From: a virus
Taxonomy: Duplodnaviria; Heunggongvirae; Uroviricota; Caudoviricetes
DNA length: 38,647 nucleotides
Virus record (IMG/VR): IMGVR_UViG_2711768064_000004
Reading direction: 5' to 3' (one strand)
Shown: positions 19,777 through 38,647 of the stretch, one piece after another
Numbering within the stretch: position 1 is the stretch's first letter
Layout of the letters: every line of letters begins with the position of its first letter
Made by a program: the position numbers and the translations under genes
The notes under the pieces: model-generated
What the model was told of the DNA's origin: nothing
The model's database searches: none
Seen by the model: the letters and a program-made list of their open reading frames with translations, nothing else

Positions 19777-19980
19777 TCAGTCCCATAGCTGGACGGTCTG
19801 CACGGTGGTGGTTGTCGGAATGTCCGGCAGCTCCACCTGCAGCCCGTGAGGTAAAAAGGGGCCATATTCGGCAAGCCCCGGATTTGCCTTCAGTACCTGC
19901 TCCGTGACACCCTGCGTGCGCCCGTAATGACGCCAGCAAAGCGCGTCCACCGTGTCATACTGATGCGCACGCACTTTCAT
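19777..19980 (-). CDS. X: tail protein X
   Basis: 67-aa ORF resembling P2 gpX. Confidence 0.85.
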   Translation of the reverse strand: MKVRAHQYDTVDALCWRHYGRTQGVTEQVLKANPGLAEYGPFLPHGLQVELPDIPTTTTVQTVQLWD

Positions 19981-20507: not shown

Positions 20508-20539
20508 CCCGTGCCGCCCGTGCGCGGGGGCACGTTCTG

Positions 20540-21190
20540 TCAGCGGCTGTCATTGCGCAGTCTGCGCTCCAGCTGCTGTTTGTCTTTTTTCACGCCACAG
20601 CGGGGATCGAGCTGTAACGCATGGTTGAGATGATTAAGGGCAGACGCCGGATTGCTTTCACTCAGGACCGCGCCAATCGCTTTATGCAAACGCGCCCGTG
20701 ACTGGTCCGGCATATCCAGACCGTCTGTCAGCTCCAGCGTCTGCAGCAACAGATCGGCATCAAAGCCGGTGGTGGCAAGCATTGCGCTCTGCGCGGCGTC
20801 TGCCATTTCCTCTGCCAGCACGGTCTGCACGTTGCGGTTACCCAGCGGCATCACCCAGCCATGACGCAGGGCATGACGCCCGATCTCCAGTGCTCCGGCA
20901 TAATCTCCGGCATCAATGCGCCACAGCATCACGTACATCAGCACGTCATCCTGTTGAGCGCCTCCGGCAGCCAGGACACCCTCTGCCCAGGCGGCGTACT
21001 TCGGCAGCAGCTCCACCTTGATTTCCGCTTTTTTGACCGTGGACTGAACGCCCTTGAGACGGCGGCGGTCTTCCGCCAGTTGCAGCAGCATCAGGTCATA
21101 GCCCGATGCGTGGCGAACACTGCCGCCCTCGCGGGCGGCCTGTTCAGCCTGAACGCGCAGGCGATGCTGCCGTGCGGGACTCAGGCTCAT
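20540..21190 (-). CDS. M: terminase small (endonuclease) subunit M
   Basis: 216-aa ORF resembling P2 gpM. Confidence 0.85.
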   Translation of the reverse strand: MSLSPARQHRLRVQAEQAAREGGSVRHASGYDLMLLQLAEDRRRLKGVQSTVKKAEIKVELLPKYAAWAEGVLAAGGAQQDDVLMYVMLWRIDAGDYAGALEIGRHALRHGWVMPLGNRNVQTVLAEEMADAAQSAMLATTGFDADLLLQTLELTDGLDMPDQSRARLHKAIGAVLSESNPASALNHLNHALQLDPRCGVKKDKQQLERRLRNDSR

Positions 21191-21193
21191 GGA

Positions 21194-22252
21194 TTACGCT
21201 CCGGTTTCGGCTGCGGCGGCGCTGAAATCACCAATCTGGATGTTTTCCACCAGTGCGGCGCAGCGGTAGTCCTCAACCACATAGGCTTCGTTAACGGATT
21301 CAAAGTTTTCAATCCGGTCACGTTTCGGGTTGTCGATAACTGAACGGCGGCGGGTGTCTTCCTGCCAGTAGATGGACAGGTTATCCAGACGGGTGATCAG
21401 CAGCGCATTCGGCGGGAAGAACGGCGCACGCACGGCCTGCAGGCCACCCATGCGTTTCTGACTGATGATCATATCGGCAGCCAGTTTTTCACTGTTTTCC
21501 TGCTCTTTGTTGACCAGCGGGAAATACTTGTCAGACAGCAGTTCACGACCGCAAATCACCACCAGATCGTCATCGTCCTGATAGACCACTTCAATAAGCT
21601 CATTGACCGCATCCATCACCACGGCGTCCAGGTTGGCATATTCACCACCTTTCCCGACTTTCACCGCACCCGGTGTGGTTTCACCGCCCGTGGTAGTGCT
21701 GCCCATGACGTGATCCGGTGCATCCTCACGGATTTTCTGCAGCCAGCCTTTATTCACATCCTGCAGTAACGGGTTTTCGCTACGGTTGGAGGTTTTCGCA
21801 CGCTTCACGCCGTTAAAGCCGATCATGATGCGGTCCAGTGCCTGACGTTTCACGATGGCGTCACGGATACGCACCTGAAAATCCTGAAACTTCGCCCACA
21901 GGTCCAGCTTCGCGTAGGTCAGTACCGTGTCAAAGTTGGTCTGCTCGCATTTATATTCCACATCGACCATCAGCGTCGGATCGACAGGTTCACGCTCTTT
22001 CGCGGTGGTGTCAGTGGTTCCGGCAATGGTGCTGCCAACACCCAGCCCCAGCAGCTGACCGGACTGCTCAGTCACTGGCGTGACGTTAATCAGCGTCAGG
22101 AAAGCGGCGGACTGCTGGATCTGGTCTTCCAGCGTCTGCTGCACAGACGGCTCTACAGTGAACTTGCTGGACAGTTCTTCAACTGCCACACCGTTCAGAC
22201 GTGCCAGTTGCTGCAGGTAAGCGTTAAAAGCAAAGCGGGTATTCTTCTTCAT
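21194..22252 (-). CDS. N: major capsid protein N
   Basis: 352-aa ORF resembling P2 gpN. Confidence 0.9.
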   Translation of the reverse strand: MKKNTRFAFNAYLQQLARLNGVAVEELSSKFTVEPSVQQTLEDQIQQSAAFLTLINVTPVTEQSGQLLGLGVGSTIAGTTDTTAKEREPVDPTLMVDVEYKCEQTNFDTVLTYAKLDLWAKFQDFQVRIRDAIVKRQALDRIMIGFNGVKRAKTSNRSENPLLQDVNKGWLQKIREDAPDHVMGSTTTGGETTPGAVKVGKGGEYANLDAVVMDAVNELIEVVYQDDDDLVVICGRELLSDKYFPLVNKEQENSEKLAADMIISQKRMGGLQAVRAPFFPPNALLITRLDNLSIYWQEDTRRRSVIDNPKRDRIENFESVNEAYVVEDYRCAALVENIQIGDFSAAAAETGA

Positions 22253-22268
22253 CAGGTTTTGTGCTCCA

Positions 22269-23102
22269 TCAGCAATTGGTCAGAGTGTCAGCGGGGGCGT
22301 TACCGCCTGTTGCACGCTGGCGGTAGTCCTGGCGGCTGTCTTCATGACTCAGCTTATTCACCAGTTCGTTAAAGGCGGTTTGCTGCTCCTGCAGAGCAGT
22401 CTCCAGCTCAGACAGGCGTTCTTCCTGCTCAGACAGGGATTTTTCGGTGCGTGCGCTCAGGTTCTGCTGCTCAGTGGCGACCAGCTCCACGGCCTTATGC
22501 ACATCAGAGAACCGGGCGTCATCGGACTGCTCTTTTTTGGTAAACAGCGCCGTGACACGGGCAAACAGGGACGGCTTGTCCTCCTGGATTTCTTCCAGTT
22601 CGATCACCGTTTCCTCTGCAGCGGTAAAAAGATTGGCGGGATTCTGCTTGCGGTTTGCCAGCGGGTTATGGGCTGCACTGGCGCTGAATGTCAGCATTTC
22701 AGTGCCCAGACTGGCAGGATCATCAGTGGCCGCCAGGCCGACCAGGTAGGCTTTGCCCGTATCAGCAAACTTCGGGCTGACTTCCATAGAGGTGAATAAT
22801 TTCTGGCCTTTTTTCACCAGCTCCACCAGGGACTCCGTTGGCTCAACGTCGGCATACAGCGCCATCTTGCCCGCCAGCGGACCTTCCGTGATTTCTTCAG
22901 CAAACAGCGCCGTCACCTTGCCGTAGCGGTTAAAGGTGCTGTCCGGCAGATAAGACTTGATGTGCTCAAGGTTAATCAGCGCGGTATACACCGCCGGGTT
23001 GTAGCTGGCTGCCATCTGTTCCAGCCATTCACGCTGGATTTCACGTCCGTCGGTAGTGGCACCTTCCACCCCGATGCGAAAACGCTTTGCTTTCACTGTC
23101 AT
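22269..23102 (-). CDS. O: capsid scaffolding protein O
   Basis: 277-aa ORF resembling P2 gpO; coiled-coil C-terminal region. Confidence 0.9.
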   Translation of the reverse strand: MTVKAKRFRIGVEGATTDGREIQREWLEQMAASYNPAVYTALINLEHIKSYLPDSTFNRYGKVTALFAEEITEGPLAGKMALYADVEPTESLVELVKKGQKLFTSMEVSPKFADTGKAYLVGLAATDDPASLGTEMLTFSASAAHNPLANRKQNPANLFTAAEETVIELEEIQEDKPSLFARVTALFTKKEQSDDARFSDVHKAVELVATEQQNLSARTEKSLSEQEERLSELETALQEQQTAFNELVNKLSHEDSRQDYRQRATGGNAPADTLTNC

Positions 23103-23244: not shown

Positions 23245-25011
23245 ATGAACACCACACTGACACCCGCAGATCTCGATCCCCGTCGGCAGGCCATGCTGCT
23301 GTACTTTCAGGGATACCGCGTAGCCCGCATTGCTGAAATGCTGGGCGAGAAAGTTGCAACCGTTCACAGCTGGAAAAAACGCGACAAGTGGGGTGACTAT
23401 GGGCCGCTGGATCAGATGCAGCTCACCACCGCCGCACGCTACTGCCAGCTCATTATGAAGGAGCACAAAGAAGGGAAAGATTTCAAAGAAATTGACCTGC
23501 TGGCGCGCCAGTCGGAACGCCACGCGCGCATCGGCAAGTTTAACAATGGCGGTAACGAAGCCGACTTAAACCCTAACGTCGCCAACCGCAACAAAGGCCC
23601 GCGCCGTCAGCCGGAAAAGAATATTTTCACCGATGAGCAGATTGAGAAGCTGGAAGAAATCTTCCATTCCTCCATGTTCAACTACCAGCGCCACTGGTGG
23701 GAAGCCGGAAAAACCAACCGCATCCGCAACCTGCTGAAGTCACGCCAGATCGGCGCGACCTTTTACTTTGCCCGTGAAGCCCTGATTGACGCCCTTCTGA
23801 CTGGACGTAACCAGATTTTCCTTTCCGCCAGTAAAGCACAGGCCCACGTCTTTAAACAGTACATCATCGACTTCGCCAAAGAAGTGGAGGTGGAGCTGAA
23901 AGGCGATCCGATGGTGCTTCCCAACGGGGCCACGCTTTACTTCCTCGGCACCAATGCCCGCACAGCCCAGAGTTACCACGGCAACCTGTATCTGGATGAA
24001 TATTTCTGGATACCGAAATTCCAGGAGCTGCGCAAAGTGGCTTCCGGTATGGCTATTCACAAAAAATGGCGACAAACCTATTTTTCCACGCCATCCAGCC
24101 TGACACACAGTGCTTATCCGTTCTGGTCCGGTGCGCTGTTCAACCGTGGGCGCAACAAAGCCGATAAGGTGGACATCGACCTGTCCCACAGCAATCTGGC
24201 CCCCGGCCTGCTGTGCGCAGACGGGCAATACCGCCAGATAGTCACCGTGGAAGATGCAGTGCGCGGCGGATGTAACCTGTTCGACCTCGATCAGTTACGC
24301 ATGGAGTACAGCCCGGACGAATACCAGAACCTGCTGATGTGCGAGTTTGTGGACGATCTCGCGTCTGTGTTCCCACTCAGCGAGCTGCAGGCGTGCATGG
24401 TGGACAGTTGGGAAGTCTGGACCGACTTTCATGCACTGGCCCTTCGCCCGTTTGGGTGGCGCGAAGTGTGGATCGGTTATGACCCGGCAAAAGGTACGCA
24501 GAACGGCGACAGCGCCGGATGCGTGGTGGTGGCACCGCCAGCCGTGCCGGGCGGTAAGTTCCGCATTCTTGAGCGTCACCAGTGGCGCGGGATGGACTTC
24601 CGCGCCCAGGCTGACGCCATCAAAAAACTGACCGAGCAGTACAACGTGACCTACATCGGCATCGACTCGACAGGTGTCGGCCACGGGGTTTACGAGAACG
24701 TGAAAGCGTTTTTTCCAGCCGTCCGGGAGTTTGTCTACAACCCCAACGTTAAAAACGCTCTGGTACTCAAGGCCTACGACATTATCAGCCACCGCCGTCT
24801 GGAGTTTGACGCCGGGCACACCGACATTGCGCAGTCATTCATGGCAATCCGTCGCGCCACCACCGCCAGTGGCAACCGCCCAACCTATGAAGCCAGCCGC
24901 AGCGAAGAAGCCAGCCACGCCGATCTGGCCTGGGCAACAATGCACGCACTGTTTAACGAACCGCTGCAGGGCGAATCCGCCAATACCAGCAATATTGTGG
25001 AGATTTTTTGA
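23245..25011 (+). CDS. P: terminase large (ATPase) subunit P
   Basis: 588-aa ORF resembling P2 gpP. Confidence 0.9.
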   Translation: MNTTLTPADLDPRRQAMLLYFQGYRVARIAEMLGEKVATVHSWKKRDKWGDYGPLDQMQLTTAARYCQLIMKEHKEGKDFKEIDLLARQSERHARIGKFNNGGNEADLNPNVANRNKGPRRQPEKNIFTDEQIEKLEEIFHSSMFNYQRHWWEAGKTNRIRNLLKSRQIGATFYFAREALIDALLTGRNQIFLSASKAQAHVFKQYIIDFAKEVEVELKGDPMVLPNGATLYFLGTNARTAQSYHGNLYLDEYFWIPKFQELRKVASGMAIHKKWRQTYFSTPSSLTHSAYPFWSGALFNRGRNKADKVDIDLSHSNLAPGLLCADGQYRQIVTVEDAVRGGCNLFDLDQLRMEYSPDEYQNLLMCEFVDDLASVFPLSELQACMVDSWEVWTDFHALALRPFGWREVWIGYDPAKGTQNGDSAGCVVVAPPAVPGGKFRILERHQWRGMDFRAQADAIKKLTEQYNVTYIGIDSTGVGHGVYENVKAFFPAVREFVYNPNVKNALVLKAYDIISHRRLEFDAGHTDIAQSFMAIRRATTASGNRPTYEASRSEEASHADLAWATMHALFNEPLQGESANTSNIVEIF

Positions 25012-26054
25012 TGAGTGAACCCGAAGCCTTAACCAGCTCAACGCCAACAGAAGCTACGGCGCCTAAAAACGCAGGCGTAACTGCCGAGGCTTTCAGCTTT
25101 GGTGACCCGATCCCGGTGCTGGATCGCCGCGAGCTGCTGGACTATGTGGAATGCGTACAGATGGACAGATGGTATGAGCCGCCAGTAAGCTTTGACGGGC
25201 TGGCGCGAACCTACCGCGCCGCTGTGCATCACAGCTCACCGATTGCTGTTAAGCGTGACATTCTCAGCAGTACCTACATTCCGCACCGCCTGCTCAGCCA
25301 GCAGGCTTTTGCCCGTTTCGTCCAGGACTATCTGGTGTTCGGTAACGCCTATCTGGAAAAGCGCACCAACCGGCTCGGCGGCGTGCTCTCGCTGGAGCCA
25401 GCACTGGCGAAGTACACACGGCGAGGCGTGGACCTCGACACCTACTGGTTTATGCAGTATGGCCTAACCACGCAGCCCTATGAATTCACGCAGGGTAACA
25501 TCTTTCATTTACTGGAGCCGGATATTAATCAGGAGATTTACGGGCTGCCCGGCTATCTTTCCGCCATTCCATCAACCCTGCTCAACGAGTCCGCAACGCT
25601 GTTCCGCCGGAAGTATTACATCAACGGCAGCCATGCGGGTTTCATCATGTACATGACCGACGCAGCACAGAACCAGGAGGACGTGAACAATATCCGCCAG
25701 GCAATGAAAAGCGCCAAAGGGCCGGGCAACTTCCGTAACCTGTTTATGTATTCGCCCAACGGCAAAAAAGACGGTATCCAGATCATCCCGCTGTCGGAAG
25801 TTGCGGCAAAAGATGAGTTTCTGAACATCAAGAACGTGAGCCGCGATGACATGATGGCAGCGCACCGCGTTCCGCCGCAGATGATGGGCATAATCCCCAA
25901 CAATACTGGCGGTTTTGGTGATGTGGAGAAAGCCAGCCGCGTGTTTGTACGAAATGAATTAATACCGCTTCAAGAAAGGATTAAAGAACTCAATGAATGG
26001 TTAGGGGATGAAGTTATTAGATTTGCGAAATATACACTCGACGACATAAGCTAA
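25008..26054 (+). CDS. Q: portal protein Q
   Basis: 348-aa ORF resembling P2 gpQ; coupled to P (ATGA overlap); last ~30 codons AT-rich. Confidence 0.9.
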   Translation: MMSEPEALTSSTPTEATAPKNAGVTAEAFSFGDPIPVLDRRELLDYVECVQMDRWYEPPVSFDGLARTYRAAVHHSSPIAVKRDILSSTYIPHRLLSQQAFARFVQDYLVFGNAYLEKRTNRLGGVLSLEPALAKYTRRGVDLDTYWFMQYGLTTQPYEFTQGNIFHLLEPDINQEIYGLPGYLSAIPSTLLNESATLFRRKYYINGSHAGFIMYMTDAAQNQEDVNNIRQAMKSAKGPGNFRNLFMYSPNGKKDGIQIIPLSEVAAKDEFLNIKNVSRDDMMAAHRVPPQMMGIIPNNTGGFGDVEKASRVFVRNELIPLQERIKELNEWLGDEVIRFAKYTLDDIS

Positions 26055-26069
26055 TTTTTTTATAAAATA

Positions 26070-26096
26070 TGGTGTCATCATATAACGATGACACCA
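26070..26096. terminator. hairpin terminator between convergent Q and the cargo operon
   Basis: Perfect 10-bp stem TGGTGTCATC / GATGACACCA with 7-nt loop; A/T-rich runs on the Q side serve as the U-tract for the minus-strand operon. Confidence 0.55.
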
Positions 26097-26102
26097 TCAC
26101 CT

Positions 26103-26798
26103 CTAAAACTTATCAATTTCCATACATGAAATAGCATCATTGAAAATCGAAAAATGCTCATCAGGAACCACTGCAGAAGCCCCACTGGTTAATTCAAAAC
26201 TAATCTTTGAACCAAGGTAAAACCCTCCAGCTTTTATTTTATCGAGTTTGAATTCACTATCCCCAACAAAAATCTTCAAATCATGCAAAGCATCGCCACT
26301 AGAATTCAATTCCAAACATGCTCTTGTTTTTTCAGTAACAGGAAGATTTGACACCTTCACTTTTGAAATGCCAAACACCTTTACGCCGAAATTTTCTCGA
26401 ATGACCCTCATGAAAGCTTTAAGATCTACGGTTAAATTTCCATAAGCAACATTTAATCCTTCGGCCTGAGATAAAAAATCGATAAAAGGTTTAACTGTTT
26501 TTGGAGGGTTGTAAAAAGTTAACAAACATATCTTATTGCTGAGGATTTGGATAGAAAAACTAATCTGATCAAATACAACCCTTTCGAATTCCAGCACCTC
26601 ACCGAATGGATCGGCAATTGGCTCTAAGACAACAGATTTTTTATTGAAAGTTGCAGTCATACCATTATGAATGGTTTCATACTTAGTAAAACCAGCACCA
26701 ATAGCATCAGAATAAGGCGTGTTTTTGATAAAATCAAAGACAGCCTCAGGGCTGGTCCTGATTTTTAATCTCATCCACTTCAATCTTAATTGTGACAT
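26103..26798 (-). CDS. hypothetical protein, third gene of cargo operon (no recognisable domain)
   Basis: Start at ATG 26798 with AAGGAG SD 6 nt upstream; 231 aa; AT-rich codon usage unlike flanking phage genes. Confidence 0.7.
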   Translation of the reverse strand: MSQLRLKWMRLKIRTSPEAVFDFIKNTPYSDAIGAGFTKYETIHNGMTATFNKKSVVLEPIADPFGEVLEFERVVFDQISFSIQILSNKICLLTFYNPPKTVKPFIDFLSQAEGLNVAYGNLTVDLKAFMRVIRENFGVKVFGISKVKVSNLPVTEKTRACLELNSSGDALHDLKIFVGDSEFKLDKIKAGGFYLGSKISFELTSGASAVVPDEHFSIFNDAISCMEIDKF

Positions 26799-26817
26799 AG
26801 CCACTCCTTATGATGTA

Positions 26818-27882
26818 TTAGCTGATTTCCATTATAATCGAATAAGCTCTATTTTCAATTAATTTATTAAATCGCTCAAGTTCTCTACCAGAGAGCTTTT
26901 GCGGTTTACTGAAATACTGTCCGTTTGCCTTATATTTTCTGACTCCCTTAACTAAATATGAGAAATTAGTACAATTGAGAGGATCACCAAACTGGGCCTC
27001 AAGCTCAAATATATCTGGATCTGCCAAGTTCTCCTTGACCTTCCATTTTATTTTCCAGATATAGAATCCTCTATCATAAAGATCGCTTAATTCATCAGAT
27101 TTTAGTACACCCTCCCCCTTAAGTGATGCCCTAGACACGTGCACTCCAGTTTCGGTGTTTCCATCTTCAGCCTCTATAGTTTCAGGCTTAGGGTGATATA
27201 CATAAGCATCCGTCACATCCAGTAACTCATAACCATCAAGTGTACGGATTAATTTATCGAAGAATAAAGTTCTAACATCAGCAGATGTATTGTGAGAGAG
27301 AGAAATTTCGTTTAATTTTAAATCAAGGTTACTATTATCCGCTTGCTCGTTCTGAATAGCGCTGATATGCCCCAGTAAAAGCCCCTCGTAATCTTCAAGA
27401 TTTTCATTATCTGGACGGCGGATACTGTAACCATTAGTAAGAGGCTCAATTTCAATTAACGCTTCTTTATTAATAGCCTGTTTGAAATCACTTTTGCCAT
27501 AATTAGTCGAAAGATACCTAATATTAATCAGAACTCGCGACCCATCCACGATTATTTTACAATAATCATCCTGCTCGGTAATTTCTTTCTTAAGTTTTTC
27601 TGCCGCGTCTATAATACCTTTCTTATCTATGTCAGTCTCAATTCTTACACATGTAATTTTTTCGGTCCTTGTCTGACCACCTAACAGGGTTGCAATTTTT
27701 TGATGCTCGTAATAATCATGAGTCATTCGAGAATAGTTTCTTGCTAATTCTTTTCGAGGAGTTTTTTTACATATGATCGTTCCTCTCTCTAAGAAAAGGT
27801 CTTGAATTTCATTTATGGTAATTTGCTTTTGGTTTAAAGCATCATACAAAGCTTTATCAGTTACGCTGTGAATATTTTTCAT
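26818..27882 (-). CDS. hypothetical protein, second gene of cargo operon (no recognisable domain)
   Basis: Start at ATG 27882 forming ATGA overlap with stop of the upstream gene; GGGAG SD; 354 aa. Confidence 0.7.
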   Translation of the reverse strand: MKNIHSVTDKALYDALNQKQITINEIQDLFLERGTIICKKTPRKELARNYSRMTHDYYEHQKIATLLGGQTRTEKITCVRIETDIDKKGIIDAAEKLKKEITEQDDYCKIIVDGSRVLINIRYLSTNYGKSDFKQAINKEALIEIEPLTNGYSIRRPDNENLEDYEGLLLGHISAIQNEQADNSNLDLKLNEISLSHNTSADVRTLFFDKLIRTLDGYELLDVTDAYVYHPKPETIEAEDGNTETGVHVSRASLKGEGVLKSDELSDLYDRGFYIWKIKWKVKENLADPDIFELEAQFGDPLNCTNFSYLVKGVRKYKANGQYFSKPQKLSGRELERFNKLIENRAYSIIMEIS

Positions 27883-28943
27883 TTCGGCTCCCAAGAAATA
27901 ACTTCTGCAGAAAAGAATTCTTTTACTGTAGACACAACTTTAACGTCTAAATCTTCAAGCCTCTTTTTAGCTTCTTCATCTAATCCATACTCATGTGCAT
28001 ATTTTTCAACTCCCCGTTGAAAATGTGAGAGAATCCTCTCATCTTTTTCTCGATATGCCAGCCTTATCCTAATTTTATTTATACCATCAAGAATTTGATA
28101 ATTTGACAAAATATCCAACAAATAAAAGAATTCATTGTCGCTATTACCTTTTTTGTTGTAATACACAACAAACCCTTCTGGATAAACTTCCTCCTCAATA
28201 CCTTTAGCTCTGTTAAATTTATAAACAGCACCATGTTTGATTATCATGAAAGGTGATGACAAGACTTCTATAGTAGCTGGAAGATATTTTTCAGTCACAG
28301 CAACCTTATGAAAAGTCAATTGAGGGTAATAGAATCCATAGTCTTCATCAGGAAACTCTTTCTTAGCAATCAAATCATTCATATCATTCGTTATTGCCAA
28401 CATATAATTAATCAGAAACGGATCGATTATATGAATTTGCTGACCTGCTGATAAAGGAATCTTTTCTAAGTTGACAGCCTTATCTCTTCTTCCTTTAGCG
28501 GGTTTAGGAGGATTAAAAAAATCATAAAAATCATGCTGCAACTGATTATCATGATTAAAAACAAATAATAAACCGCGAACTTCACAGTCAATTTGAGAAA
28601 AATTATATTTTTCTGACCACTCAGGACTATAGCGAGCACATTCAATAGTTTTTGCTAATGACTCCAATGCAGATTCTATTTTAGAAGCATTTATTGAGCC
28701 TGCTTTATAACTTTTTAAATCAGTATTTAAATAAATGACTTTGTTTAAATATGGGTCTTTATAACTAAATACAACATCTACAGGATGCGTGTGCTTCTGC
28801 TTCTTACCTTCAGGCTTATGTTTAGCCTCATCATCACAAAGGAAATCTCGGTCGCAGGGGCCATGCTGCTGCCACTTAAATCGACTCAGTAGATCCTCAG
28901 ATATGCGTTTCGCCAAATCTTCAATAGGGCCGTTCTCTGCCAT
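27879..28943 (-). CDS. hypothetical protein, first gene of cargo operon; weak PD-(D/E)xK-like pattern
   Basis: 354-aa ORF with AAGGAA SD; N-terminal region has E...HPVD-x17-DLK spacing compatible with, but not proving, a restriction-endonuclease-like fold. Confidence 0.7.
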   Translation of the reverse strand: MAENGPIEDLAKRISEDLLSRFKWQQHGPCDRDFLCDDEAKHKPEGKKQKHTHPVDVVFSYKDPYLNKVIYLNTDLKSYKAGSINASKIESALESLAKTIECARYSPEWSEKYNFSQIDCEVRGLLFVFNHDNQLQHDFYDFFNPPKPAKGRRDKAVNLEKIPLSAGQQIHIIDPFLINYMLAITNDMNDLIAKKEFPDEDYGFYYPQLTFHKVAVTEKYLPATIEVLSSPFMIIKHGAVYKFNRAKGIEEEVYPEGFVVYYNKKGNSDNEFFYLLDILSNYQILDGINKIRIRLAYREKDERILSHFQRGVEKYAHEYGLDEEAKKRLEDLDVKVVSTVKEFFSAEVISWEPK

Positions 28944-29044
28944 TTGATTTCCTTACTTTTTTGCAGACAATTCTAATTGAAAGATAAAGGTAAGCTTTTT
29001 TGCTTGCAAGGACTTTGGACCTAACGTGAGACGCTGAGCGCGCG

Positions 29045-29063
29045 CTCGTATCCCCGCCACGCC
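29045..29063. other. candidate cos (cohesive-end) site of the prophage
   Basis: Minus-strand reading GGCGTGGCGGGGATACGAG matches the first 13 nt of the 186/P2-type 19-nt cohesive end as recalled (GGCGTGGCGGGGA...); located in a GC-rich island between Q-side and A-side cargo, where cos sits in P2-family prophages. Confidence 0.55.
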
Positions 29064-29334
29064 TGCCCGCTTTATATAGTGGTTTTCATGCACCTGCATG
29101 ACATAAGCAAAAGCCCGCCATACCTAGCAGGCCCCAACTAGAGCGATCCTTAAACGATCATGCGGATTCATGCAGTATAGACATGCAGTAGTTACGCCAA
29201 ACCGTGTAGCGAGGCCACCTGCTAAAAATGTTCACGGAGTAACATTTGATCTCCACTGCAAAAAATGAAACTTTCGCTTTCACCAAATATAACAAGAGGT
29301 AATCTTTGGTGTTTTACACAGCAAACGGTGAGCC

Positions 29335-29916
29335 ATGAAAGTCAACATAAAACAGATTGTTGGAAATTGGGAATTAGGTCTTGCGATGGATAAACACAGC
29401 ATCCGCAGCATTCCCATTGGTTACGATGAGTGGGGACATATGCGGTTTGAGACGGAGCGTACTGAGGTAGGCGAATCTCTTTTCCAGCTTAAATACCGTG
29501 ACGATTGGTCACAAGTTAAGCCTTTAGCCCAATGCCTAGCAGAGCATGCCTTTCCTCATTTCAGCAATGTCGGGTTTATCGTTCCAATGGCTGCATCTAA
29601 TCAGCGTGCACGCCAGCCAGTGACCGAAATAGCTCAGGAACTAGCCAAACTAGTTGGCAAACCATGCTTCGATGACCTCTTGTTGAAAGCCCCCGGCGGG
29701 GCATCGCTAAAGAACCTGAATACAAAAGAAGAGAAAATCACGGCGCTGGGTAATTCGTTCTCTGTTAATGACAGTATTGAGAATAATGGCAACTGGAATG
29801 TCCTTATCATTGACGACCTCTACCATACAGGCGCATCTATGGAGGCTGCTTGTGCTGTGCTAAACGATTATACTAAGGTTAGAAGCATTTATGTTGCAGC
29901 TTTGACTTGGAGATAG
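29335..29916 (+). CDS. phosphoribosyltransferase (PRTase)-like domain protein
   Basis: 193 aa; C-terminal VLIIDDLYHTGASMEAA matches the type I PRTase PRPP-binding signature; no zinc-finger cysteines (not ComF-like). Confidence 0.75.
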   Translation: MKVNIKQIVGNWELGLAMDKHSIRSIPIGYDEWGHMRFETERTEVGESLFQLKYRDDWSQVKPLAQCLAEHAFPHFSNVGFIVPMAASNQRARQPVTEIAQELAKLVGKPCFDDLLLKAPGGASLKNLNTKEEKITALGNSFSVNDSIENNGNWNVLIIDDLYHTGASMEAACAVLNDYTKVRSIYVAALTWR

Positions 29917-29918
29917 TG

Positions 29919-30476
29919 ATGACTACGGTATTTGTTGCTGGTTCAATAACCATCAAAAACCTTGACACACTCATCGTGGATCGTCTGAAAAAAATTGTTA
30001 ACTCGCGTTTTCGTATTGTAGTTGGTGATGCCAATGGTGTTGATTCATCTGTTCAACGCGTATTGCTAGAACTTGGATGTGAAAAAGCCACAGTATTCAG
30101 TAGCTCAGAAAAACCGCGCAATAATCTTGGCTCATGGCCTGTACATGTAGTAAGTACTAGCCATGCAGCCGGCACTCGCGCGTTTTTCACTGCGAAAGAT
30201 CTCAAAATGGCAGAAGAAGCCGATTATGGATTAATGGTTTGGGATACGAAGAGCACGGGTACTCTGAGTAACGTGATTGAGCTTCTTAAACGTAAAAAAT
30301 ACTCTGTCGTTTTTGTTAATAAATACAAAAAGTTCTTTATTATCAAATCTCCAGAGCACCTTGACGCTTTGATTAACTGCATGTCACCAGCCTCTTTGGA
30401 AAAAGCTGATGAAAAGATCAGATTGCGCGAAAAAATCAACCAACTAAAAAACGAGCAAATCCAGATGTTTATGTGA
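29919..30476 (+). CDS. SLOG-superfamily (DprA/Smf- or LOG-like Rossmann) domain protein
   Basis: Start at ATG 29919, 2 nt after the PRTase stop, GGAGA SD; motif VFVAGS...RIVVGDANGVDSSVQRVLLELG resembles the DprA/Smf Gly-rich nucleotide-binding loop. Family assignment from motif only. Confidence 0.6.
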   Translation: MTTVFVAGSITIKNLDTLIVDRLKKIVNSRFRIVVGDANGVDSSVQRVLLELGCEKATVFSSSEKPRNNLGSWPVHVVSTSHAAGTRAFFTAKDLKMAEEADYGLMVWDTKSTGTLSNVIELLKRKKYSVVFVNKYKKFFIIKSPEHLDALINCMSPASLEKADEKIRLREKINQLKNEQIQMFM

Positions 30477-30565
30477 AATTCTTTGATGATAACACTAACG
30501 CCTCGCCCTGCTCGTTGTTCAACCTTGCTGGCTTCAGAATCAAGTACTGATGCCAGCAACGTTTC

Positions 30566-30799
30566 TTAATGCAGCCAGCTGTCGTCTTCCCACACCTTCT
30601 GCATAATTTTCATCACTTGTTTTCTTTCTTCGTCCAGTTGCAGTCCGGTCAGTTCCACACCGTTAGAGCTACCTTTTCGGATACGAATTACCGTTTTGGG
30701 ATACAGGGGGCGCAGATTGCGGTAAAGCTCGGATTCAAGGGCGTCCAGGGTAGACTGGCTAATCTTCTGCTCTTTATCGATCATTATTTCAATGCGCAT
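30566..30799 (-). CDS. DinI-like protein (Tum C-terminal-domain-like)
   Basis: Start at MRIEIMIDKE with GAGGTGA SD; aligns with E. coli DinI (MRIEV...WE..DW) as recalled. Confidence 0.8.
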   Translation of the reverse strand: MRIEIMIDKEQKISQSTLDALESELYRNLRPLYPKTVIRIRKGSSNGVELTGLQLDEERKQVMKIMQKVWEDDSWLH

Positions 30800-30809
30800 A
30801 AAAGTCACC

Positions 30810-30998
30810 TCAACTGATGACATCCATTGAGCGGTTGTATTCGTGAGTTCTGATTTTTGCCATGAGTTCATCAGTCAATTCAGAAACCCACTGCAGGGCC
30901 AGCCCCTTCTCTTCATCACTACACTCACTAGCCGCTACAAGCTTAAGAAAAAAATCAATGCGCTGGAGCTTCAAAGACTCCAAAAAATAGTCCTGCAT
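30810..30998 (-). CDS. hypothetical small protein, first gene of SOS-regulated pair (possible Tum N-terminal-like antirepressor part)
   Basis: 62-aa ORF with AGGAGG SD 4 nt upstream; LexA box and promoter-like elements just upstream. Confidence 0.5.
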   Translation of the reverse strand: MQDYFLESLKLQRIDFFLKLVAASECSDEEKGLALQWVSELTDELMAKIRTHEYNRSMDVIS

Positions 30999-31040
30999 CT
31001 TTCCTCCTATGACACCAAAGCAATACTGTATACATAACCA

Positions 31041-31056
31041 CTGTTTATATTTACAG
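31041..31056. promoter_or_regulatory. LexA (SOS) box CTGTTTATATTTACAG
   Basis: Perfect CTGT-N8-ACAG with AT-rich centre, overlapping -35/-10-like hexamers upstream of the small ORF/DinI-like pair; analogous to the 186 tum promoter. Confidence 0.7.
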
Positions 31057-31150
31057 TATATAATAATCTTACTGATGTAAAACGTTTTTTTACGCTCATC
31101 AGCCTGATATGCCTGGTATTATTAAGAGCACGAATTGTTAACCCGCGTAA

Positions 31151-33565
31151 TTAATACAGGTTTCGCCACTTATCATCTTCCTGCAAACGCTGGTTCCGAT
31201 AGAAGATACGCAGGCCTGCTCCTGACGGAATACTGCCTCCGCGAAGCAGTAAATCGACCTCTTTCTCGCTGCCATCAAATCCCCTGGACTTCAGTTCATA
31301 CACGAGCTGCAGTCGCTGATGGTCTGTAATTCGCTGTTTGTAGTCTTTACGCCGTTTCGGTTTCACCAGGCGTAACCTTGCTGCCAGTTCCCGGCGCTCT
31401 TTTTTGCTCATACTGTGCAGGTAATCGTGCAACTCCTTGTCATCCATGCGGGTGATATCCGTTCTGGTATCTCCATCAGCTGATTTGTCTTTCCCTTGTT
31501 GGTACAAATTTTCAGCAAGGGGACAGTTATTGCCACGAGTCCAAGGGGCGCAAGCGCCCTGGTCGGCTGCCGCCTCCTGAACGTCAACGGCTTTACGAAC
31601 CATTTTCCACTTCACTGCATGAGTGCAGATCTTGCCCTCTGCAATGGGTGACCAGATGCCATAAATACGAATGCCGTGATCGCCATAGGCGGTCGGCTCT
31701 TCGTTGATTTCATAAGCGGTTCTGATGAGGTGATATTTACGGGGAACCAGTACGCCGCCCTGCTTCATGATGTAGGTGGCAAAACAACCAGCATCAGCAG
31801 CAGCCAGAATGGCATCAAGACGCGGGTTATCCAGTACCGGCGCACCTGCTTTTTTGTCACCCTGTTGCCTTGCCGCCTGACCAGCCAGCAAGCGAAGTTC
31901 ACGGTAAGCCTGACGCCCCGGAATACCAAAGAAGCGGAATTGCTGAACACGATGCAGAGACGCCCAGGCATTCACGTATTCAGCGTTATCACGCAGAGAT
32001 TTACCCGTTTCCTTGCTGATCTCGCCAGCCAGACCACGACCGTCAATGTTCTTACTGATATATTTCGCGATGTAGCTTGTCGGCGTTCCTTTGCGCGGGT
32101 TAATCAACTCAGACTTAAAGCGCGGCCCAGTGTTATTGCCCAGCTCCTCGCGGTCTTCACGGATGGCAAACTTACGCAGTAATGCAGTGATGGCACGGCG
32201 GTCTTTTTTGCGCATGAAACACAACAGGTGCCAGTGAACTGTGCCATCATGATGCGGCTCAGCCACCCGCACGCCATACCAGCGCAACCCGGCTTTGTGC
32301 ATCGCCTTACGAAATGCAGCAAACATGCCGACCAGATAATCGCTGCTTTGTCTTACCGTCGCGTTTGTCCAGGTCGGGTTTGGTCTGCCGTTATTTAGCG
32401 TGGAATGGAAACGCGACGGACAGGTGATAGTGTAGAAAACGGCGCAGTCACCGCGCATTTCCGCGATAAGCTCCAGACCTTTAACACAGGCCATCATCTC
32501 ATTGCGGCGATGCGCAGGGTTGCTGCTGCTGGCGTTTACCACATCCTCCATGTCCAGCGTGTCGCCGTCTTCGTTCACCAGTTCATGAGAACGGAAAAAC
32601 TCCAGCGACTTACGGCGCTGCTCACGTTTATGCATCACGGCTTCATAGCTGACATAAGGAGATGCTTTTTTGCTGACCAGGCAAACAGCGCGCAACTGCT
32701 CTTCCCGCCATTCGCAACGCATCTTCCATAATTTCCGGTACCACCAGTCGGCGCACAACATACGCGCCAGCGAACCCGGAATGAGTTCATAGGGCACGGG
32801 TTTACGGCGGTTTCTTTTCCGACGGAGTTGCTCAAACGCAGGTGGGATGACATCCAGACGCAGGGTTTCCGCTGCCACCTTTTCCCATGTCTTGCGGATT
32901 TCTTCTGGCTTAACGTCATCGGTGGCATACAAATCACCACAAGCTGCATCAAGGCACATACTCATATGCGCAGCTACCAGGGTGGACAGGCGTTTCACCT
33001 GATCCTGACTCATTTCAGGCAGGATCAGCAGGCCGTCCAGCCCTTCATGGCTTGCCATAAAGCGAAAAGATGCAGATAGCTGACTGTCGCGTACATGCTC
33101 CAGTCGTTCCAGACATGGCTTAATCGTCTCACGTAAATAGCGGGAATAAGCCTTTGGCCTGCCCAGGCTGCTGAAGTATTCAATACGTTGCATCAGCGGC
33201 TTGCTGATATGGGAAGGCTGGGCGTTGACGTCCGCCAGAATGACCATGTCTGAATTAAAACGCTGCTGCTCATGCGCCAGCTTTGCCCGGCTAATGAGCT
33301 TATCCTGCTCCATTTCGCGCTGGACAGGATCACGTGATTCATTAAAGAAATAACGCTCCCAGACCTGATCACTCAGTGCCTCGCGGCGCAACTGTTCCTG
33401 CTCGTTATCGGCAGCGTACAGAGTGATCAGGTTTGAAAGCGTAGAAACCGGCGCAACTTCCGCCGGGTCCAGATAAGGGTTAATGGCCTTTTTCGGGCTG
33501 TTCCATGAGAATGCTGCAGCAGCCTCGTTAAAGCCGCAGCAGTTGTTCATATCGGCATGACTCAT
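31151..33565 (-). CDS. A: replication initiation protein A (rolling-circle nickase)
   Basis: 804-aa ORF resembling P2 gpA (e.g. [14 protein letters not shown] block). Confidence 0.9.
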
Positions 33566-34419
33566 GCACGTACTCCGTACACGGCAGAACTATCCACGCC
33601 ACGCGAATAATCAAATCCCATCCAGCAGCGCGGCCCGGAAACAGCAATGATTTCTGTTGCTGATTTACCCTCGCCAGCTGCCACACCGATGCTGCGTTTT
33701 ACCTTGATATAGTGGTGAGTAAAATTGCGATACAGCGAACGGATCAGGGATGTGTCACTGTTAGAAACAATGACTGGATGTCCTTCTGATGACCGATGTT
33801 CAAGAACGGATGCCAGGTGATACTGGTCATCTTCAGTGAAACCATCAGTGTGATAGCCGGAAAACGTACCGTCATACGGCGGATCGCAATACACCACATC
33901 TCCCGCCTTCAACATCGCCAGCGTTTCATCAAAGCTGGCGCAGATAAACGTTGCTCGCTGGGCTTTTTCTGCAAATGTGCGAAGTTCTTTTTCAGGGAAA
34001 TACGGATTTTTATAATTACCGTAGGGGATGTTGAAATGCCCGCTCTTGTTATAGCGACATAAACCACGGTAACCGTGACGATTAAGATACAGGAAATATA
34101 CCGCTTTCATGAAATCAGTAATTTCAGTTGAGCAGTTAAACTCCTGCCTTATGTTGTAATAAGCCACCTCCCTGTTTGCGATCTCAAATAAAACTCTGGC
34201 GCGAGATATAAACGATTCACAATCAGCGGCAACCTTTTTATAGAGGTTGATTAAATCAGGATTAATATCCGCAACCAGATAGCTGGGATAATCCGTTTCC
34301 ATCATCACAGCACAGGAACCCGCGAAAGGTTCAACCAGTCGCGGGCCAGCAGGAAGGTATTTTTTCAGTTCTGGCATAATGGCGGTTTTATTTCCCGCCC
34401 ATTTCAGGATGGTGTTCAT
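33562..34419 (-). CDS. DNA adenine methyltransferase (Dam-like)
   Basis: Start at [11 protein letters not shown]; motif [10 protein letters not shown] and catalytic DPPY; ATGA overlaps with both the upstream TraR-like gene and downstream gene A. Confidence 0.85.
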
Positions 34420-34643
34420 ACAGCACCTCCGTTGTAATGTTTGCCTTTCAGTTCTGCGATTTCCTGACAGGTAATGCAAAGCTGCACTCCCGGAATGGCG
34501 CGGCGTCGTGCTGGCGGAATTGGCGCTTCACATTCAATGCAAAGTACGCGTGACACGCCCGGTGATTTGGCACGGGCTGCACGGATATGGCGCTGGCGTT
34601 CTTCTTCAACGCGCTGCTGTACGAGATCCATTGCATCAGCCAT
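34416..34643 (-). CDS. TraR/DksA-family C4 zinc-finger protein
   Basis: 75 aa; C-x2-C-x17-C-x2-C. Confidence 0.75.
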   Translation of the reverse strand: MADAMDLVQQRVEEERQRHIRAARAKSPGVSRVLCIECEAPIPPARRRAIPGVQLCITCQEIAELKGKHYNGGAV

Positions 34644-37406: not shown

Positions 37407-37594
37407 CTTTTGCTTTTATATCTGCGTCTAAAATAAAAATGAGCCGCAGGTTAACCGCAAAAGTTACATGCTCACATAGCAAAAAGAATAGCCAACTTAA
37501 TTATGGCTTCAGTGAGATGTATGGTCGTAGGATTTCATACATTGACACTGGTTATACATACAGTGAAAATGCTCTCTACTGGAGGGCATTTTTT

Positions 37595-38647
37595 ATGGCA
37601 GTACGAAAACTCACCACTGGGAAATGGCTTTGCGAATGTTACCCCGCCGGACGAAGTGGGCGTCGTGTGCGTAAACAATTCGTCACCAAAGGCGAAGCAC
37701 TGGCTTTTGAGCGCCACACGATGGAAGAAACCGAAGCAAAGCCCTGGCTGGGTGAATCAGTGGATCGTCGAACACTGAAAGACGTGGTTGAGCTATGGTT
37801 CAAACTACATGGTAAATCTCTGACAGCTGGGCAGCATGTCTATGACAAATTGCTGTTGATGGTTGACGCTCTGGGAAATCCCATTGCAACCGATCTCACC
37901 TCTAAAATGTTTGCCCACTATCGAGATAAACGCCTGACAGGAGAGATCTACTTCAGCGAAAAATGGAAGAAAGGAGCAAGCCCGGTCACCGTTAACCTGG
38001 AGCAAAGCTATCTAAGTAGTGTTTTTAGCGAACTATCCCGCCTGGGCGAATGGTCGTATCCGAACCCACTGGAGAACATGCGAAAATTCACCATCGCAGA
38101 AAAAGAGATGGCATGGCTTACCCATGAACAGATTGTTGAATTGCTGGCTGATTGCAAACGTCAGGACCCAATTCTGGCACTGGTAGTCAAGATATGCTTA
38201 AGCACAGGCGCACGCTGGCGAGAAGCAATAAATCTTACCCGTTCACAGGTGACTAAATACCGAATTACCTTTGTCAGAACGAAGGGGAAGAAAAACAGAA
38301 GCATTCCCATCAGTAAAGAGCTTTACGAAGAGATTATGGCACTTGATGGGTTCAATTTCTTTACAGACTGCTATTTTCAATTTTTATCCGTGATGGAAAA
38401 AACGTCTATCGTGCTCCCTCGCGGTCAACTGACACACGTTCTGCGTCATACGTTTGCGGCGCATTTTATGATGTCGGGTGGAAACATCCTGGCCTTACAA
38501 AAAATTCTCGGGCATCACGATATAAAAATGACGATGCGTTACGCACATCTGGCACCGGATCATCTGGAAACGGCGCTCCGTTTCAACCCTCTGGCAACGC
38601 TGCCAAGTGGCGACAAAGTGGCGGCAGCGGTTGGCATTACCCCGTAA
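37595..38647 (+). CDS. int: tyrosine integrase (P2/186 Int family)
   Basis: Start at MAVRKLTTGKW with GGAGGG SD 9 nt upstream; conserved R...HxxR...Y catalytic region (LSTGARWREA, HVLRHTFAAHF, RYAHLAP); ORF track has a 52-codon upstream extension. Confidence 0.9.
   Translation: MAVRKLTTGKWLCECYPAGRSGRRVRKQFVTKGEALAFERHTMEETEAKPWLGESVDRRTLKDVVELWFKLHGKSLTAGQHVYDKLLLMVDALGNPIATDLTSKMFAHYRDKRLTGEIYFSEKWKKGASPVTVNLEQSYLSSVFSELSRLGEWSYPNPLENMRKFTIAEKEMAWLTHEQIVELLADCKRQDPILALVVKICLSTGARWREAINLTRSQVTKYRITFVRTKGKKNRSIPISKELYEEIMALDGFNFFTDCYFQFLSVMEKTSIVLPRGQLTHVLRHTFAAHFMMSGGNILALQKILGHHDIKMTMRYAHLAPDHLETALRFNPLATLPSGDKVAAAVGITP

What the first reader, a model, noticed from the sequence alone, without database searches (positions are those of the whole stretch)
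29000..29250. Candidate cos site in a GC-rich island flanked by divergently transcribed cargo, with clustered CATGCA motifs
The minus strand reads GGCGTGGCGGGGATACGAG at 29063-29045, matching the 5' part of the 186/P2 cohesive end as recalled. This ~250-bp GC-rich island separates the two AT-rich cargo modules, which are transcribed outward from it in opposite directions. Between 29087 and 29190 the palindromic hexamer CATGCA (or CATGCG) recurs five times, including two CATGCAGTA copies 4 nt apart (29169-29177, 29182-29190); these could be terminase or host-factor binding elements. Placing cos here means the three-gene operon sits at the left end and the PRTase/SLOG pair at the right end of packaged DNA.
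Basis: partly seen in the sequence, partly recalled or inferred. Interest (0 to 1): 0.45.

Follow-up and report, generated by a model that had tools for sequence, protein, structure and literature searches.

The report
P2-family prophage cos packaging site

Summary
The minus strand at 29063-29045 reads GGCGTGGCGGGGATACGAG. That is 13/13 with the start of the 186 cohesive end and 15/19 overall. The same 19-mer occurs in Fels-2 and SopEPhi, and GenBank annotates it as "putative cos site" in phages SEN8 and Cartapus.

It lies in a 154-bp module (29037-29190) that is the only DNA shared with related phages between portal gene Q and replication gene A. Cargo differs on both sides.

The five CATGC motifs fall at -123, -110, -100, -36 and -28 from the predicted nick. 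GCAT boxes sit at those positions in P2, 186, PSP3, satellite P4, phiRSA1 and most of 113 unique IMG/VR junctions. In the phiCTX lineage all boxes read GCAG instead. That points to one sequence-specific reader, most likely terminase.

Two corrections: CATGCA is not a palindrome, and the "GC-rich island" is simply backbone GC (52.6%) between AT-rich cargo.

The module occurs in 1252 of 5426 complete E. coli genomes. Cargo around cos is the published P2 defence hotspot, and both flanking operons resemble systems validated there. Cleavage and protein binding were not tested. Verdict: real, interpretation supported, already known; low interest.

The parts
29037..29190 (-). Complete conserved cos module (154 bp). 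Read on the minus strand it has P2 orientation. Position p relative to the top-strand nick converts as window coordinate = 29063 - p.
   Evidence: It is the only stretch between Q and A with homology to other phages (window 29033-29190) and to other E. coli prophages (starting at 29036-29038 and ending at 29190). Across 113 junctions, pairwise identity falls to 0.33 beyond +27 and 0.27 beyond -130.
29045..29063 (-). Predicted 19-nt 5' cohesive end GGCGTGGCGGGGATACGAG (cosN). Predicted nicks lie between 29064|29063 on the minus strand and between 29044|29045 on the plus strand.
   Evidence: Aligns without gaps to the annotated cos of P2, 186 and PSP3. Identical to the 'putative cos site' of SEN8. 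Commonest allele among the IMG/VR junctions, 39 of 114.
29038..29044 (-). Left-flank heptamer CGCGCGC (p +19..+25); left boundary of the 55-bp core.
   Evidence: (T/C)GCGCGC is nearly invariant (information about 1.8-2 bits; mean pairwise identity 0.91 over +19..+26) in 113 junctions and is present in P2, 186, P4, phiRSA1 and phiCTX.
29064..29102 (-). AAAGCGGGCA up to the nick.
   Evidence: GCAT at -28 in 113/113 junctions and ATGC at -36 in 72%. Aligned with P2, 186, PSP3 and P4.
29113..29132 (-). Dyad/hairpin (GCCTGCTA-GGTA-TGGCGGGC, followed by TTTTGC) between the proximal and distal boxes.
   Evidence: As RNA it folds at -18.1 kcal/mol (z -3.8) on the minus strand but only -6.1 kcal/mol on the plus strand, because two pairs are G.U. 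A CCAG-N-CTGG dyad sits at the same position in the 186-type, P4-type and Fels-2-type modules but not in many P2-type ones. Its function is inferred only.
29145..29159 (.). Two GATC (Dam) sites 11 nt apart (29145-48 and 29156-59) in the element CGATCCTTAAACGATC.
   Evidence: Sequence. The GATCGTTTGAGGATCG element is conserved in the Fels-2-type allele group only. Significance unknown.
29159..29187 (-). Three distal boxes, CATGCG 29159-64, CATGCA 29169-74 and CATGCA 29182-87. They are GCAT at p -100, -110 and -123 on the minus strand.
   Evidence: Same positions in P2 (-100/-110/-122), 186, P4, Fels-2, SopEPhi, MLG42 and Klebsiella (-100/-110/-123); PSP3 has -100/-110 with its third box at -119. 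Found in 88%, 82% and 65% of 113 junctions against a background of 1.6% per position. All 8 P4-like satellites keep them. phiRSA1 has -99/-109/-128. The phiCTX type has GCAG at -99/-109.
20540..21190 (-). Terminase small subunit (gpM homologue), the presumed reader of the boxes.
   Evidence: Pfam PF05944 Phage_term_smal, E 1.4e-40.
23245..25011 (+). Terminase large subunit (gpP homologue; ATPase plus nuclease), presumed to nick cosN.
   Evidence: Pfam Terminase_6N, Terminase_6C and Terminase_5.
25008..26054 (+). Portal protein (gpQ homologue); defines the left arm.
   Evidence: Pfam Phage_portal. Q lies on the left-end side of cos in 89/89 related loci.
26103..28943 (-). Left-end cargo: a three-gene operon matching the '3HP' defence system.
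   Evidence: PADLOC Hp1, Hp2 and Hp3 with E 1.4e-66, 7.2e-40 and 4.3e-10. A three-gene system without known domains from this hotspot protects against P1 (PMC9122126).
29335..30476 (+). Right-end cargo: a PRTase (ComF-like) plus a small partner protein, in the position of P2 old/tin.
   Evidence: PADLOC ShosT 1.3e-8 and PsyrT 1.5e-7 for the first protein. RefSeq calls it 'ComF family protein'. Pfam hits for both are only sub-threshold: Pribosyltran E 0.01 and DNA_processg_A E 0.21.

Best explanation
Window 29037-29190 is the cos (DNA-packaging and cohesive-end) site of an apparently intact P2-family prophage of the 186/Fels-2 type in E. coli. The prophage terminase consists of a small subunit gpM (20540-21190) and a large subunit gpP (23245-25011).

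Proposed mechanism. After replication, terminase recognises this module on phage DNA. It nicks the two strands 19 nt apart: after 29064 on the minus strand and before 29045 on the plus strand. This gives 5' overhangs GGCGTGGCGGGGATACGAG. The genome is then packaged with the 3HP operon, Q and P at the left end and the PRTase pair, tum and A at the right end.

Recognition most likely uses an array of (T/C)GCAT(G) boxes, all on the right-end side of the nick. Three are direct copies at -123, -110 and -100. The other two form an inverted pair at -36 and -28. Functionally this array corresponds to lambda cosB.

Shown here: sequence identity, position, orientation, the module boundaries, box conservation, and presence of the terminase genes. 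Inferred: the cleavage positions (by gap-free alignment to the annotated ends of P2, 186 and PSP3) and the binding of the boxes by the small terminase subunit.
For: - The 19-mer is 13/13 (5' part) and 15/19 with 186 cos, and aligns without gaps to P2, 186, PSP3 and P4 through the whole 55-bp core, from the proximal TGCAT to GCGCGC. The core is the one defined by Ziermann & Calendar 1990, as cited in PMC5694545 and PMC3931495.
- The identical 19-mer is annotated as putative cos in SEN8 and Cartapus. It is the commonest allele in IMG/VR.
- Homology to other phages and prophages is confined to 29033/29037-29190.
- Q is always to the left (89/89) and A always to the right (72/72).
- gpM, gpP, Q, N, O and L are full-length Pfam matches.
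- GCAT boxes at fixed positions: 113 enteric junctions, 8/8 P4-like satellites that share nothing else with their helpers, phiRSA1, and 42 Burkholderia/Ralstonia-type junctions.
- In 93 phiCTX-type junctions the boxes at -109, -99, -36 and -28 all read GCAG and none reads GCAT. All boxes switching together argues that one protein reads them.
- The spacer between the boxes is poorly conserved (0.43 pairwise identity) while the boxes themselves are information peaks.
Against: - No virion-end data exist for this prophage. In the records I saw, this cos allele is labelled only 'putative'.
- Binding of gpM, or of any protein, to the boxes was not tested. I could not read the primary P2/P4 cos paper to learn which part of the right side is functionally required.
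- The most distal box is less fixed: it sits at -123 +/-1 in 65%, and is shifted by a few nt in most of the rest.
- The related sequences share ancestry, so part of the box conservation could be inheritance rather than selection. The divergent spacers and the P4 and phiCTX results argue against that.
- The motif switch in the phiCTX lineage could in principle reflect a Pseudomonas host factor rather than terminase.
Confidence: 0.88

Rival explanations
1. The module is a true cos homologue, but the boxes are not terminase sites. They would instead bind a host DNA-bending or nucleoid protein, or act as operators for the divergent cargo promoters.
For: No binding data exist. The boxes lie between two divergently oriented operons. 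The phiCTX record annotates an IHF site and repeats near its cos. The GCAT-to-GCAG switch coincides with a change of host genus.
Against: The boxes keep their positions relative to the nick whatever the neighbouring cargo. They do so in P2 and 186, which have no left cargo, and in P4, whose neighbours are psu and gop. Ralstonia/Burkholderia phages keep GCAT despite distant hosts. No sigma-70 consensus promoter overlaps the region.
Confidence: 0.15
2. The site is a relic: the prophage is defective and the cos sequence is no longer used.
For: No induction or virion data. P2-family prophages in E. coli are often cryptic (general knowledge).
Against: All head, terminase, portal, replication, repressor and integrase ORFs examined are full-length with strong Pfam matches. 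All cos sub-elements match the family consensus. The 154-158 bp module is 100% identical in several unrelated E. coli strains with different cargo.
Confidence: 0.1
3. The resemblance to cos is a chance match in a GC-rich spacer.
Against: The exact 13-mer is unique in the window. A gap-free alignment of about 150 bp to many phages gives E values down to 5e-50. Position and orientation relative to Q and A are conserved.
Confidence: 0.01

Closest known systems
cos of Fels-2-type Peduoviridae (Fels-2, SopEPhi, SEN8, RE2010, Cartapus, Klebsiella Dagavirus-type prophages)
   Same: Identical 19-mer GGCGTGGCGGGGATACGAG. About 83-90% identity over about 150 bp. Same boxes, same hairpin and same twin GATC element. 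Cargo on both sides of cos.
   Different: Only point differences, for example two C-to-T changes in the hairpin arm. The flanking cargo is different.
cos of P2, 186, PSP3 and satellite P4 (19-nt cohesive ends; 55-bp core of Ziermann & Calendar 1990)
   Same: Same length and register of the overhang. Same GGCG(A/T)GGCGGGGA start, the same (T/C)GCGCGC left flank and the same AAAAC...AAGCGGGC right flank. GCAT boxes at -28, -100 and -110, with a third distal box at -119 to -123. Same position between Q and the right arm.
   Different: Overhang positions 14-19 differ: TACGAG here, AAGCAT in 186 and AAGCAC in P2. The spacer from -95 to -40 is unrelated. P2, 186 and PSP3 have only about 180-200 bp between cos and Q, against about 3 kb of cargo here.
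phiCTX cos (21-nt ends, annotated R4-R6 repeats) and phiRSA1/AP3-type cos
   Same: Same overall plan, with boxes about 28, 36, 99 and 109 nt from the nick and a GCGCGC left flank.
   Different: The phiCTX lineage uses GCAG instead of GCAT in all boxes. In both lineages the -36 box is a direct rather than an inverted copy. Overhang sequence and length differ.
Lambda cos (cosQ-cosN-cosB with R sites for the small terminase subunit)
   Same: Functional analogy only: a nicking site flanked on one side by an array of short repeats for terminase recognition (established lambda biology, for example PMC4669245 as listed).
   Different: No sequence similarity. 19-nt rather than 12-nt ends. Here the repeat array lies on the right-end side. 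P4, and P2 by my own recall, prefers monomeric closed circles as packaging substrate (PMC2231350 for P4). Not a member of the lambda cos family.
P2 cos-proximal defence hotspot between gpA and gpQ (Rousset et al. 2022, PMC9122126)
   Same: cos sits inside a variable region carrying anti-phage systems. The two flanking operons here resemble two systems validated there, the three-gene '3HP' system and the DprA-PRTase pair.
   Different: Nothing essential. Here one system lies on each side of cos.

Membership tests
P2-family (Peduoviridae) cos site | G+C-rich 19-nt cohesive-end sequence beginning GGCG(A/T)GGCGGGG | tested here: met
   Minus strand 29063-29045 is GGCGTGGCGGGGATACGAG. It is 15/19 with 186 and identical to the SEN8/Fels-2 allele.
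P2-family (Peduoviridae) cos site | 55-bp conserved core spanning the proximal TGCAT, AAAAC, AAGCGGGC, the overhang and (T/C)GCGCGC | tested here: met
   Gap-free alignment with P2, 186, PSP3 and P4. Information profile of 113 junctions. Core definition taken from PMC5694545 and PMC3931495.
P2-family (Peduoviridae) cos site | Location between portal gene Q and the right arm (A/tum/old-tin region), with the GGCG strand reading toward Q | tested here: met
   Q is at 25008-26054(+), and tum and A are at 30566-33565(-). The same arrangement holds in 89/89 and 72/72 related loci.
P2-family (Peduoviridae) cos site | Cognate P2-type terminase (gpM plus gpP) encoded by the same element | tested here: met
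   PF05944 at 1.4e-40; Terminase_6N, Terminase_6C and Terminase_5.
P2-family (Peduoviridae) cos site | Staggered cleavage in vivo giving 19-nt 5' overhangs at these positions, and packaging dependence on the site | not testable with these tools
   Requires virion DNA end mapping or transduction assays.
P2-family (Peduoviridae) cos site | Distal right-side GCAT boxes at about -100, -110 and -123. This is my operational feature derived here, not a published criterion. | tested here: met
   CATGCG 29159-64 and CATGCA 29169-74 and 29182-87.
Lambda-type cos (cosQ/cosN/cosB) | 12-nt cohesive ends, R1-R3 sites bound by gpNu1, and an IHF site I1 | not tested
   The predicted overhang here is 19 nt and the region shares no homology with lambda-family phages in the blastn hits, which are all Peduoviridae. 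I treat lambda as a functional analogue only.
3HP defence system (Rousset 2022; PADLOC Hp1-Hp3), flanking cargo | Three co-oriented genes matching the Hp1, Hp2 and Hp3 profiles | tested here: met
   E 1.4e-66, 7.2e-40 and 4.3e-10 for 27879-28943, 26818-27894 and 26103-26804.
DprA-PRTase / Shosta-like pair, flanking cargo | A PRTase effector plus a DprA-like (SLOG) partner | tested here: inconclusive
   The PRTase hits ShosT at 1.3e-8. The partner has no PADLOC hit and only a sub-threshold DNA_processg_A hit at E 0.21.

The most novel reading that the evidence does not exclude
The fixed-position box array is the cosB-equivalent of the whole Peduoviridae family and is read by the small terminase subunit. 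It consists of three direct (T/C)GCAT boxes at about -123, -110 and -100 plus a pair at -36 and -28, all on the right-end side of the nick. Its recognition code has switched as a block (GCAT to GCAG) in the phiCTX lineage. If so, box type would define helper-satellite and phage-phage packaging compatibility groups. It would also explain why P4-like satellites retain the array. I found no description of this in the literature I could search, but I could not read the primary 1990 cos paper, so it may already be documented.
Probability: 0.3. Interest if true: 0.4.

Novelty: already known. Interest (0 to 1): 0.17.

Why it matters
This matters little for discovery. Its practical value is threefold.

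- It fixes the physical ends of this prophage's packaged genome. It also shows that one validated-type defence system sits on each side of cos, at the extreme left and right ends of the virion DNA.
- RefSeq leaves this module unannotated in about 23% of complete E. coli genomes. A few phage records also call short ORFs across it. A simple signature would allow automatic cos annotation and correct linearisation of P2-like genomes. That signature is the 19-mer, the GCGCGC flank and GCAT at -28, -100 and -110.
- The comparative box map gives a concrete, testable hypothesis for terminase recognition in the P2 family. It is also relevant to the design of P2/P4 cosmids used for antimicrobial delivery (PMC9942202).

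Tried and rejected
- Rfam scan of 28800-29500 at E<=1: no hit, so this is not a known structured RNA.
- Sigma-70 promoter scan of 28850-29450: 0 sites. The only terminator-like hit, 29067-29082 on the plus strand, is no more than the shuffled expectation of 0.8. The promoters of the divergent operons therefore remain unlocated.
- Small ORFs across the island (20-48 aa): dismissed as coding. The conservation pattern is box-like rather than codon-like, and the module boundaries coincide with cos features. The short 'hypothetical proteins' annotated over the homologous module in MLG42 and Klebsiella phage records are probably spurious.
- Literature: Ziermann & Calendar 1990 (PMID 2265763), the Christie & Calendar 2016 P2 review, the Lindqvist et al. 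1993 P4 review and Fujiwara et al. 2008 are not held. A search for cosB + P2-like + terminase returned 0 papers. I therefore could not establish which part of the right side is experimentally required, or which end is packaged first, and I make no claim on packaging direction.
- IHF-type site: no WATCAANNNNTTR-like match was seen by eye in the module. No formal scan was run.

Full report
**Context**

The window is a P2-family prophage in E. coli.
- It carries terminase gpP (23245-25011, +), portal gpQ (25008-26054, +), scaffold, capsid, small terminase and head-completion genes (19980-23102, -), and replication gene A (31151-33565, -).
- It also carries a 186-type Tum/DinI gene (30566-30871, -), a CI repressor and an integrase.
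- Region 25000-31200 is 100% identical to two complete E. coli chromosomes.
- Read on the minus strand, the window has the standard P2 map orientation.

**1. Checking the observation**

- The minus strand at 29063-29045 reads GGCGTGGCGGGGATACGAG.
- I verified the reference ends from the records rather than from memory. The annotated cos of 186 and PSP3 is GGCGTGGCGGGGAAAGCAT. That of P2 and P4 is GGCGAGGCGGGGAAAGCAC.
The exact 13-mer is unique in the window.
- All five CATGC motifs are at the stated coordinates.
- CATGCA is under-represented in the window as a whole (20 found, 43.7 expected). Five CATGC occurrences nevertheless fall within 154 bp, against 0.30 expected.
- Two descriptive errors. 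CATGCA is not a palindrome. The 'GC-rich island' has ordinary backbone GC (52.6% against 50.1% for the window) and stands out only against 35-43% GC cargo.

**2. What it is**

*A sharply bounded shared module*
- blastn against 50,697 phage records finds homology only to window 29033-29190. The hits are Peduoviridae of Klebsiella, Yersinia, Salmonella, Escherichia and others.
- Within E. coli genomes the shared block starts at 29036-29038 and ends at 29190, with different genes on either side.
- This is therefore a 154-bp conserved module embedded in variable cargo.

*Alignment to known cos sites*
- The junctions of P2, 186, PSP3 and P4 align to the window without gaps from about -125 to +26 relative to the nick.
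- The 19-mer is identical in Fels-2, SopEPhi, Yersinia MLG42 and a Klebsiella Dagavirus.
- GenBank annotates the same 19-mer as 'putative cos site' at 1-19 of SEN8, and within the 1-59 'putative cos site, homologous to the cos of P2 phage' of Cartapus.
- The predicted end of Stenotrophomonas phage Smp131 differs by one base (PMC3931495).

*Wider survey*
- An IMG/VR scan with a pattern that does not include the boxes gave 113 unique junctions. The window's allele is the commonest (39 of 114).
- Q lies on the left-end side in 89/89 loci and A on the right in 72/72.
- 46% of loci, and 81% of those with this allele, have more than 600 bp of cargo between cos and Q.
- Cargo on both sides of cos is therefore normal.
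- It is also published. The cos-to-Q gap and the A-to-cos region form the P2 defence hotspot (PMC9122126). Dodd & Egan 1996 and Nakayama 1999 made the same point earlier, as cited in PMC5694545.

**3. The CATGCA motifs**

- In P2 orientation the motifs are GCAT at -123, -110, -100 and -28, plus an inverted ATGC at -36.
- GCAT occupies -100, -110 and -28 in P2, 186, PSP3, P4 and four Fels-2-type phages. The third distal box is at -123 in most, -122 in P2 and -119 in PSP3.
- Among the 113 junctions, GCAT is present at -28 in 100%, -100 in 88%, -110 in 82% and -123 in 65%. ATGC is present at -36 in 72%. Background is 1.6% per position. Most sequences lacking the -123 box have a TGCAT shifted by a few nt.
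- The boxes are information peaks separated by poorly conserved spacer. Pairwise identity is 0.43 in the spacer and 0.27 beyond -130.
- All 8 P4-like satellites in the set keep all four direct boxes. These were recognised by a psu gene and the absence of Q.
- phiRSA1 has GCAT at -128, -109, -99 and -28 and ATGC at -36. Its ends were reportedly determined experimentally (PMC5694545).
- 42 Burkholderia/Ralstonia-type junctions show GCAT at -122, -109, -99, -36 and -28.
- In phiCTX and 93 phiCTX-type junctions the same positions (-109, -99, -36, -28) carry GCAG, and GCAT never reaches the reporting threshold (>=35% of junctions) at any position.
- All boxes switching together is what one expects if a single sequence-specific protein reads them. 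Satellites that depend on the helper's terminase retain the array.
- I therefore infer that the boxes are the terminase recognition array, functionally like lambda cosB, most likely read by the small subunit gpM (20540-21190, PF05944). This inference is untested.
- The phiCTX record already annotates repeats R4-R6 around cos, so repeats near P2-family cos sites are not a new observation in themselves.

**4. Other sub-elements of the module**

- The left-flank CGCGCGC (29038-29044) is nearly invariant across the family.
- A dyad lies at 29113-29132. It folds strongly only as a minus-strand transcript: -18.1 kcal/mol (z -3.8), against -6.1 kcal/mol on the plus strand. Two of its pairs are G.U, and it is followed by UUUUGC.
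- A CCAG..CTGG dyad occupies the same place in the 186-type, P4-type and Fels-2-type modules but is absent from many P2-type ones.
- That dyad may be an intrinsic terminator for right-arm transcripts running toward cos, or a protein site. I could not decide between these.
- Two GATC sites (29145-48 and 29156-59) are specific to this allele group. The prophage encodes a Dam-like methyltransferase. I did not establish any link between the two.

**5. Mechanism and its status**

- Shown: homology, register, orientation, module boundaries, box conservation, and presence of terminase genes.
- Inferred by alignment to annotated ends: nicks after 29064 (minus strand) and before 29045 (plus strand), giving 19-nt 5' overhangs. 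This puts 3HP, Q and P at the left end, and the PRTase pair, tum and A at the right end.
- Inferred from comparative data: terminase binding to the boxes.
- Not addressed: packaging direction. I could not access the relevant primary literature.

**6. Rivals**

- The boxes bind a host factor or act as operators rather than terminase sites (about 0.15). The box positions are independent of neighbouring genes, and P4 retains them, which argues against operators. A host factor cannot be excluded.
- The site is a relic in a defective prophage (about 0.1). All examined ORFs are intact and the cos sub-elements match consensus.
- Chance match (about 0.01). Excluded.

**7. Novelty and verdict**

- The site is a standard P2-family cos of the Fels-2-type allele, and the same 19-mer is already annotated as putative cos in public phage records.
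- It occurs in 1252 of 5426 complete E. coli genomes, where RefSeq leaves it unannotated.
- Its setting inside a defence hotspot is published. Both flanking operons resemble systems validated in that work.
The finding is already known and of low interest.
- The only part that may go beyond the literature I could reach is the family-wide map of fixed-position boxes and the GCAT-to-GCAG switch. I offer this as a testable hypothesis, not as a discovery.

Noticed in passing
window 16017-17225 (-): An AT-rich (32-36% GC) 402-aa ORF with a SIR2-like domain (PF13289, 1.4e-21). It sits inside the tail/baseplate gene block and looks like a third defence-type cargo insertion, away from the cos hotspot.
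   Followed up: partly
window 26103-28943 (-) and 29335-30476 (+): The operons on the two sides of cos resemble two systems validated in the same paper (Rousset 2022). One is the three-gene 3HP system, with strong PADLOC hits. The other is a PRTase plus small partner, where the PRTase hits ShosT/PsyrT and the partner gives only a sub-threshold DprA hit. Only 2 of 5426 E. coli genomes carry this exact combination over >=80% of 25000-31200.
   Followed up: partly
window 33562-34479 (-); GATC at 29145-48 and 29156-59: The prophage encodes a D12-class (Dam-like) adenine methyltransferase next to gene A. The Fels-2-type cos module contains a conserved pair of GATC sites 11 nt apart between the distal boxes and the hairpin. 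Whether methylation affects cos use is unknown.
   Followed up: no
window 29113-29132 (-): A strand-specific hairpin inside cos. It is stable only as a minus-strand RNA because of two G.U pairs, and it is followed by UUUUGC. It could be an intrinsic terminator that stops right-arm transcription from crossing cos. Related dyads occupy the same position in the 186-type and P4-type cos modules but not in many P2-type ones.
   Followed up: partly
L006 1153-1296 (Yersinia phage MLG42); L008 1468-1638 (Klebsiella phage ST13-OXA48phi12.1): These public records annotate short 'hypothetical protein' CDSs lying entirely across the conserved cos module. They are probably annotation artefacts.
   Followed up: no
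L133/L134 (phiCTX) and loci L141-L239: phiCTX-type phages have the same box layout around cos as P2, but every box reads GCAG instead of GCAT. In both the phiCTX-type and RSA1/AP3-type groups the -36 box is a direct rather than an inverted copy.
   Followed up: partly
window 935-2620 (+): This ORF is a host-type transporter (Asp-Al_Ex plus TrkA_C domains). One prophage boundary therefore lies between about 2620 and 3165. The integrase gene (37439-38647) ends at the other edge of the window. The attachment sites were not mapped.
   Followed up: no
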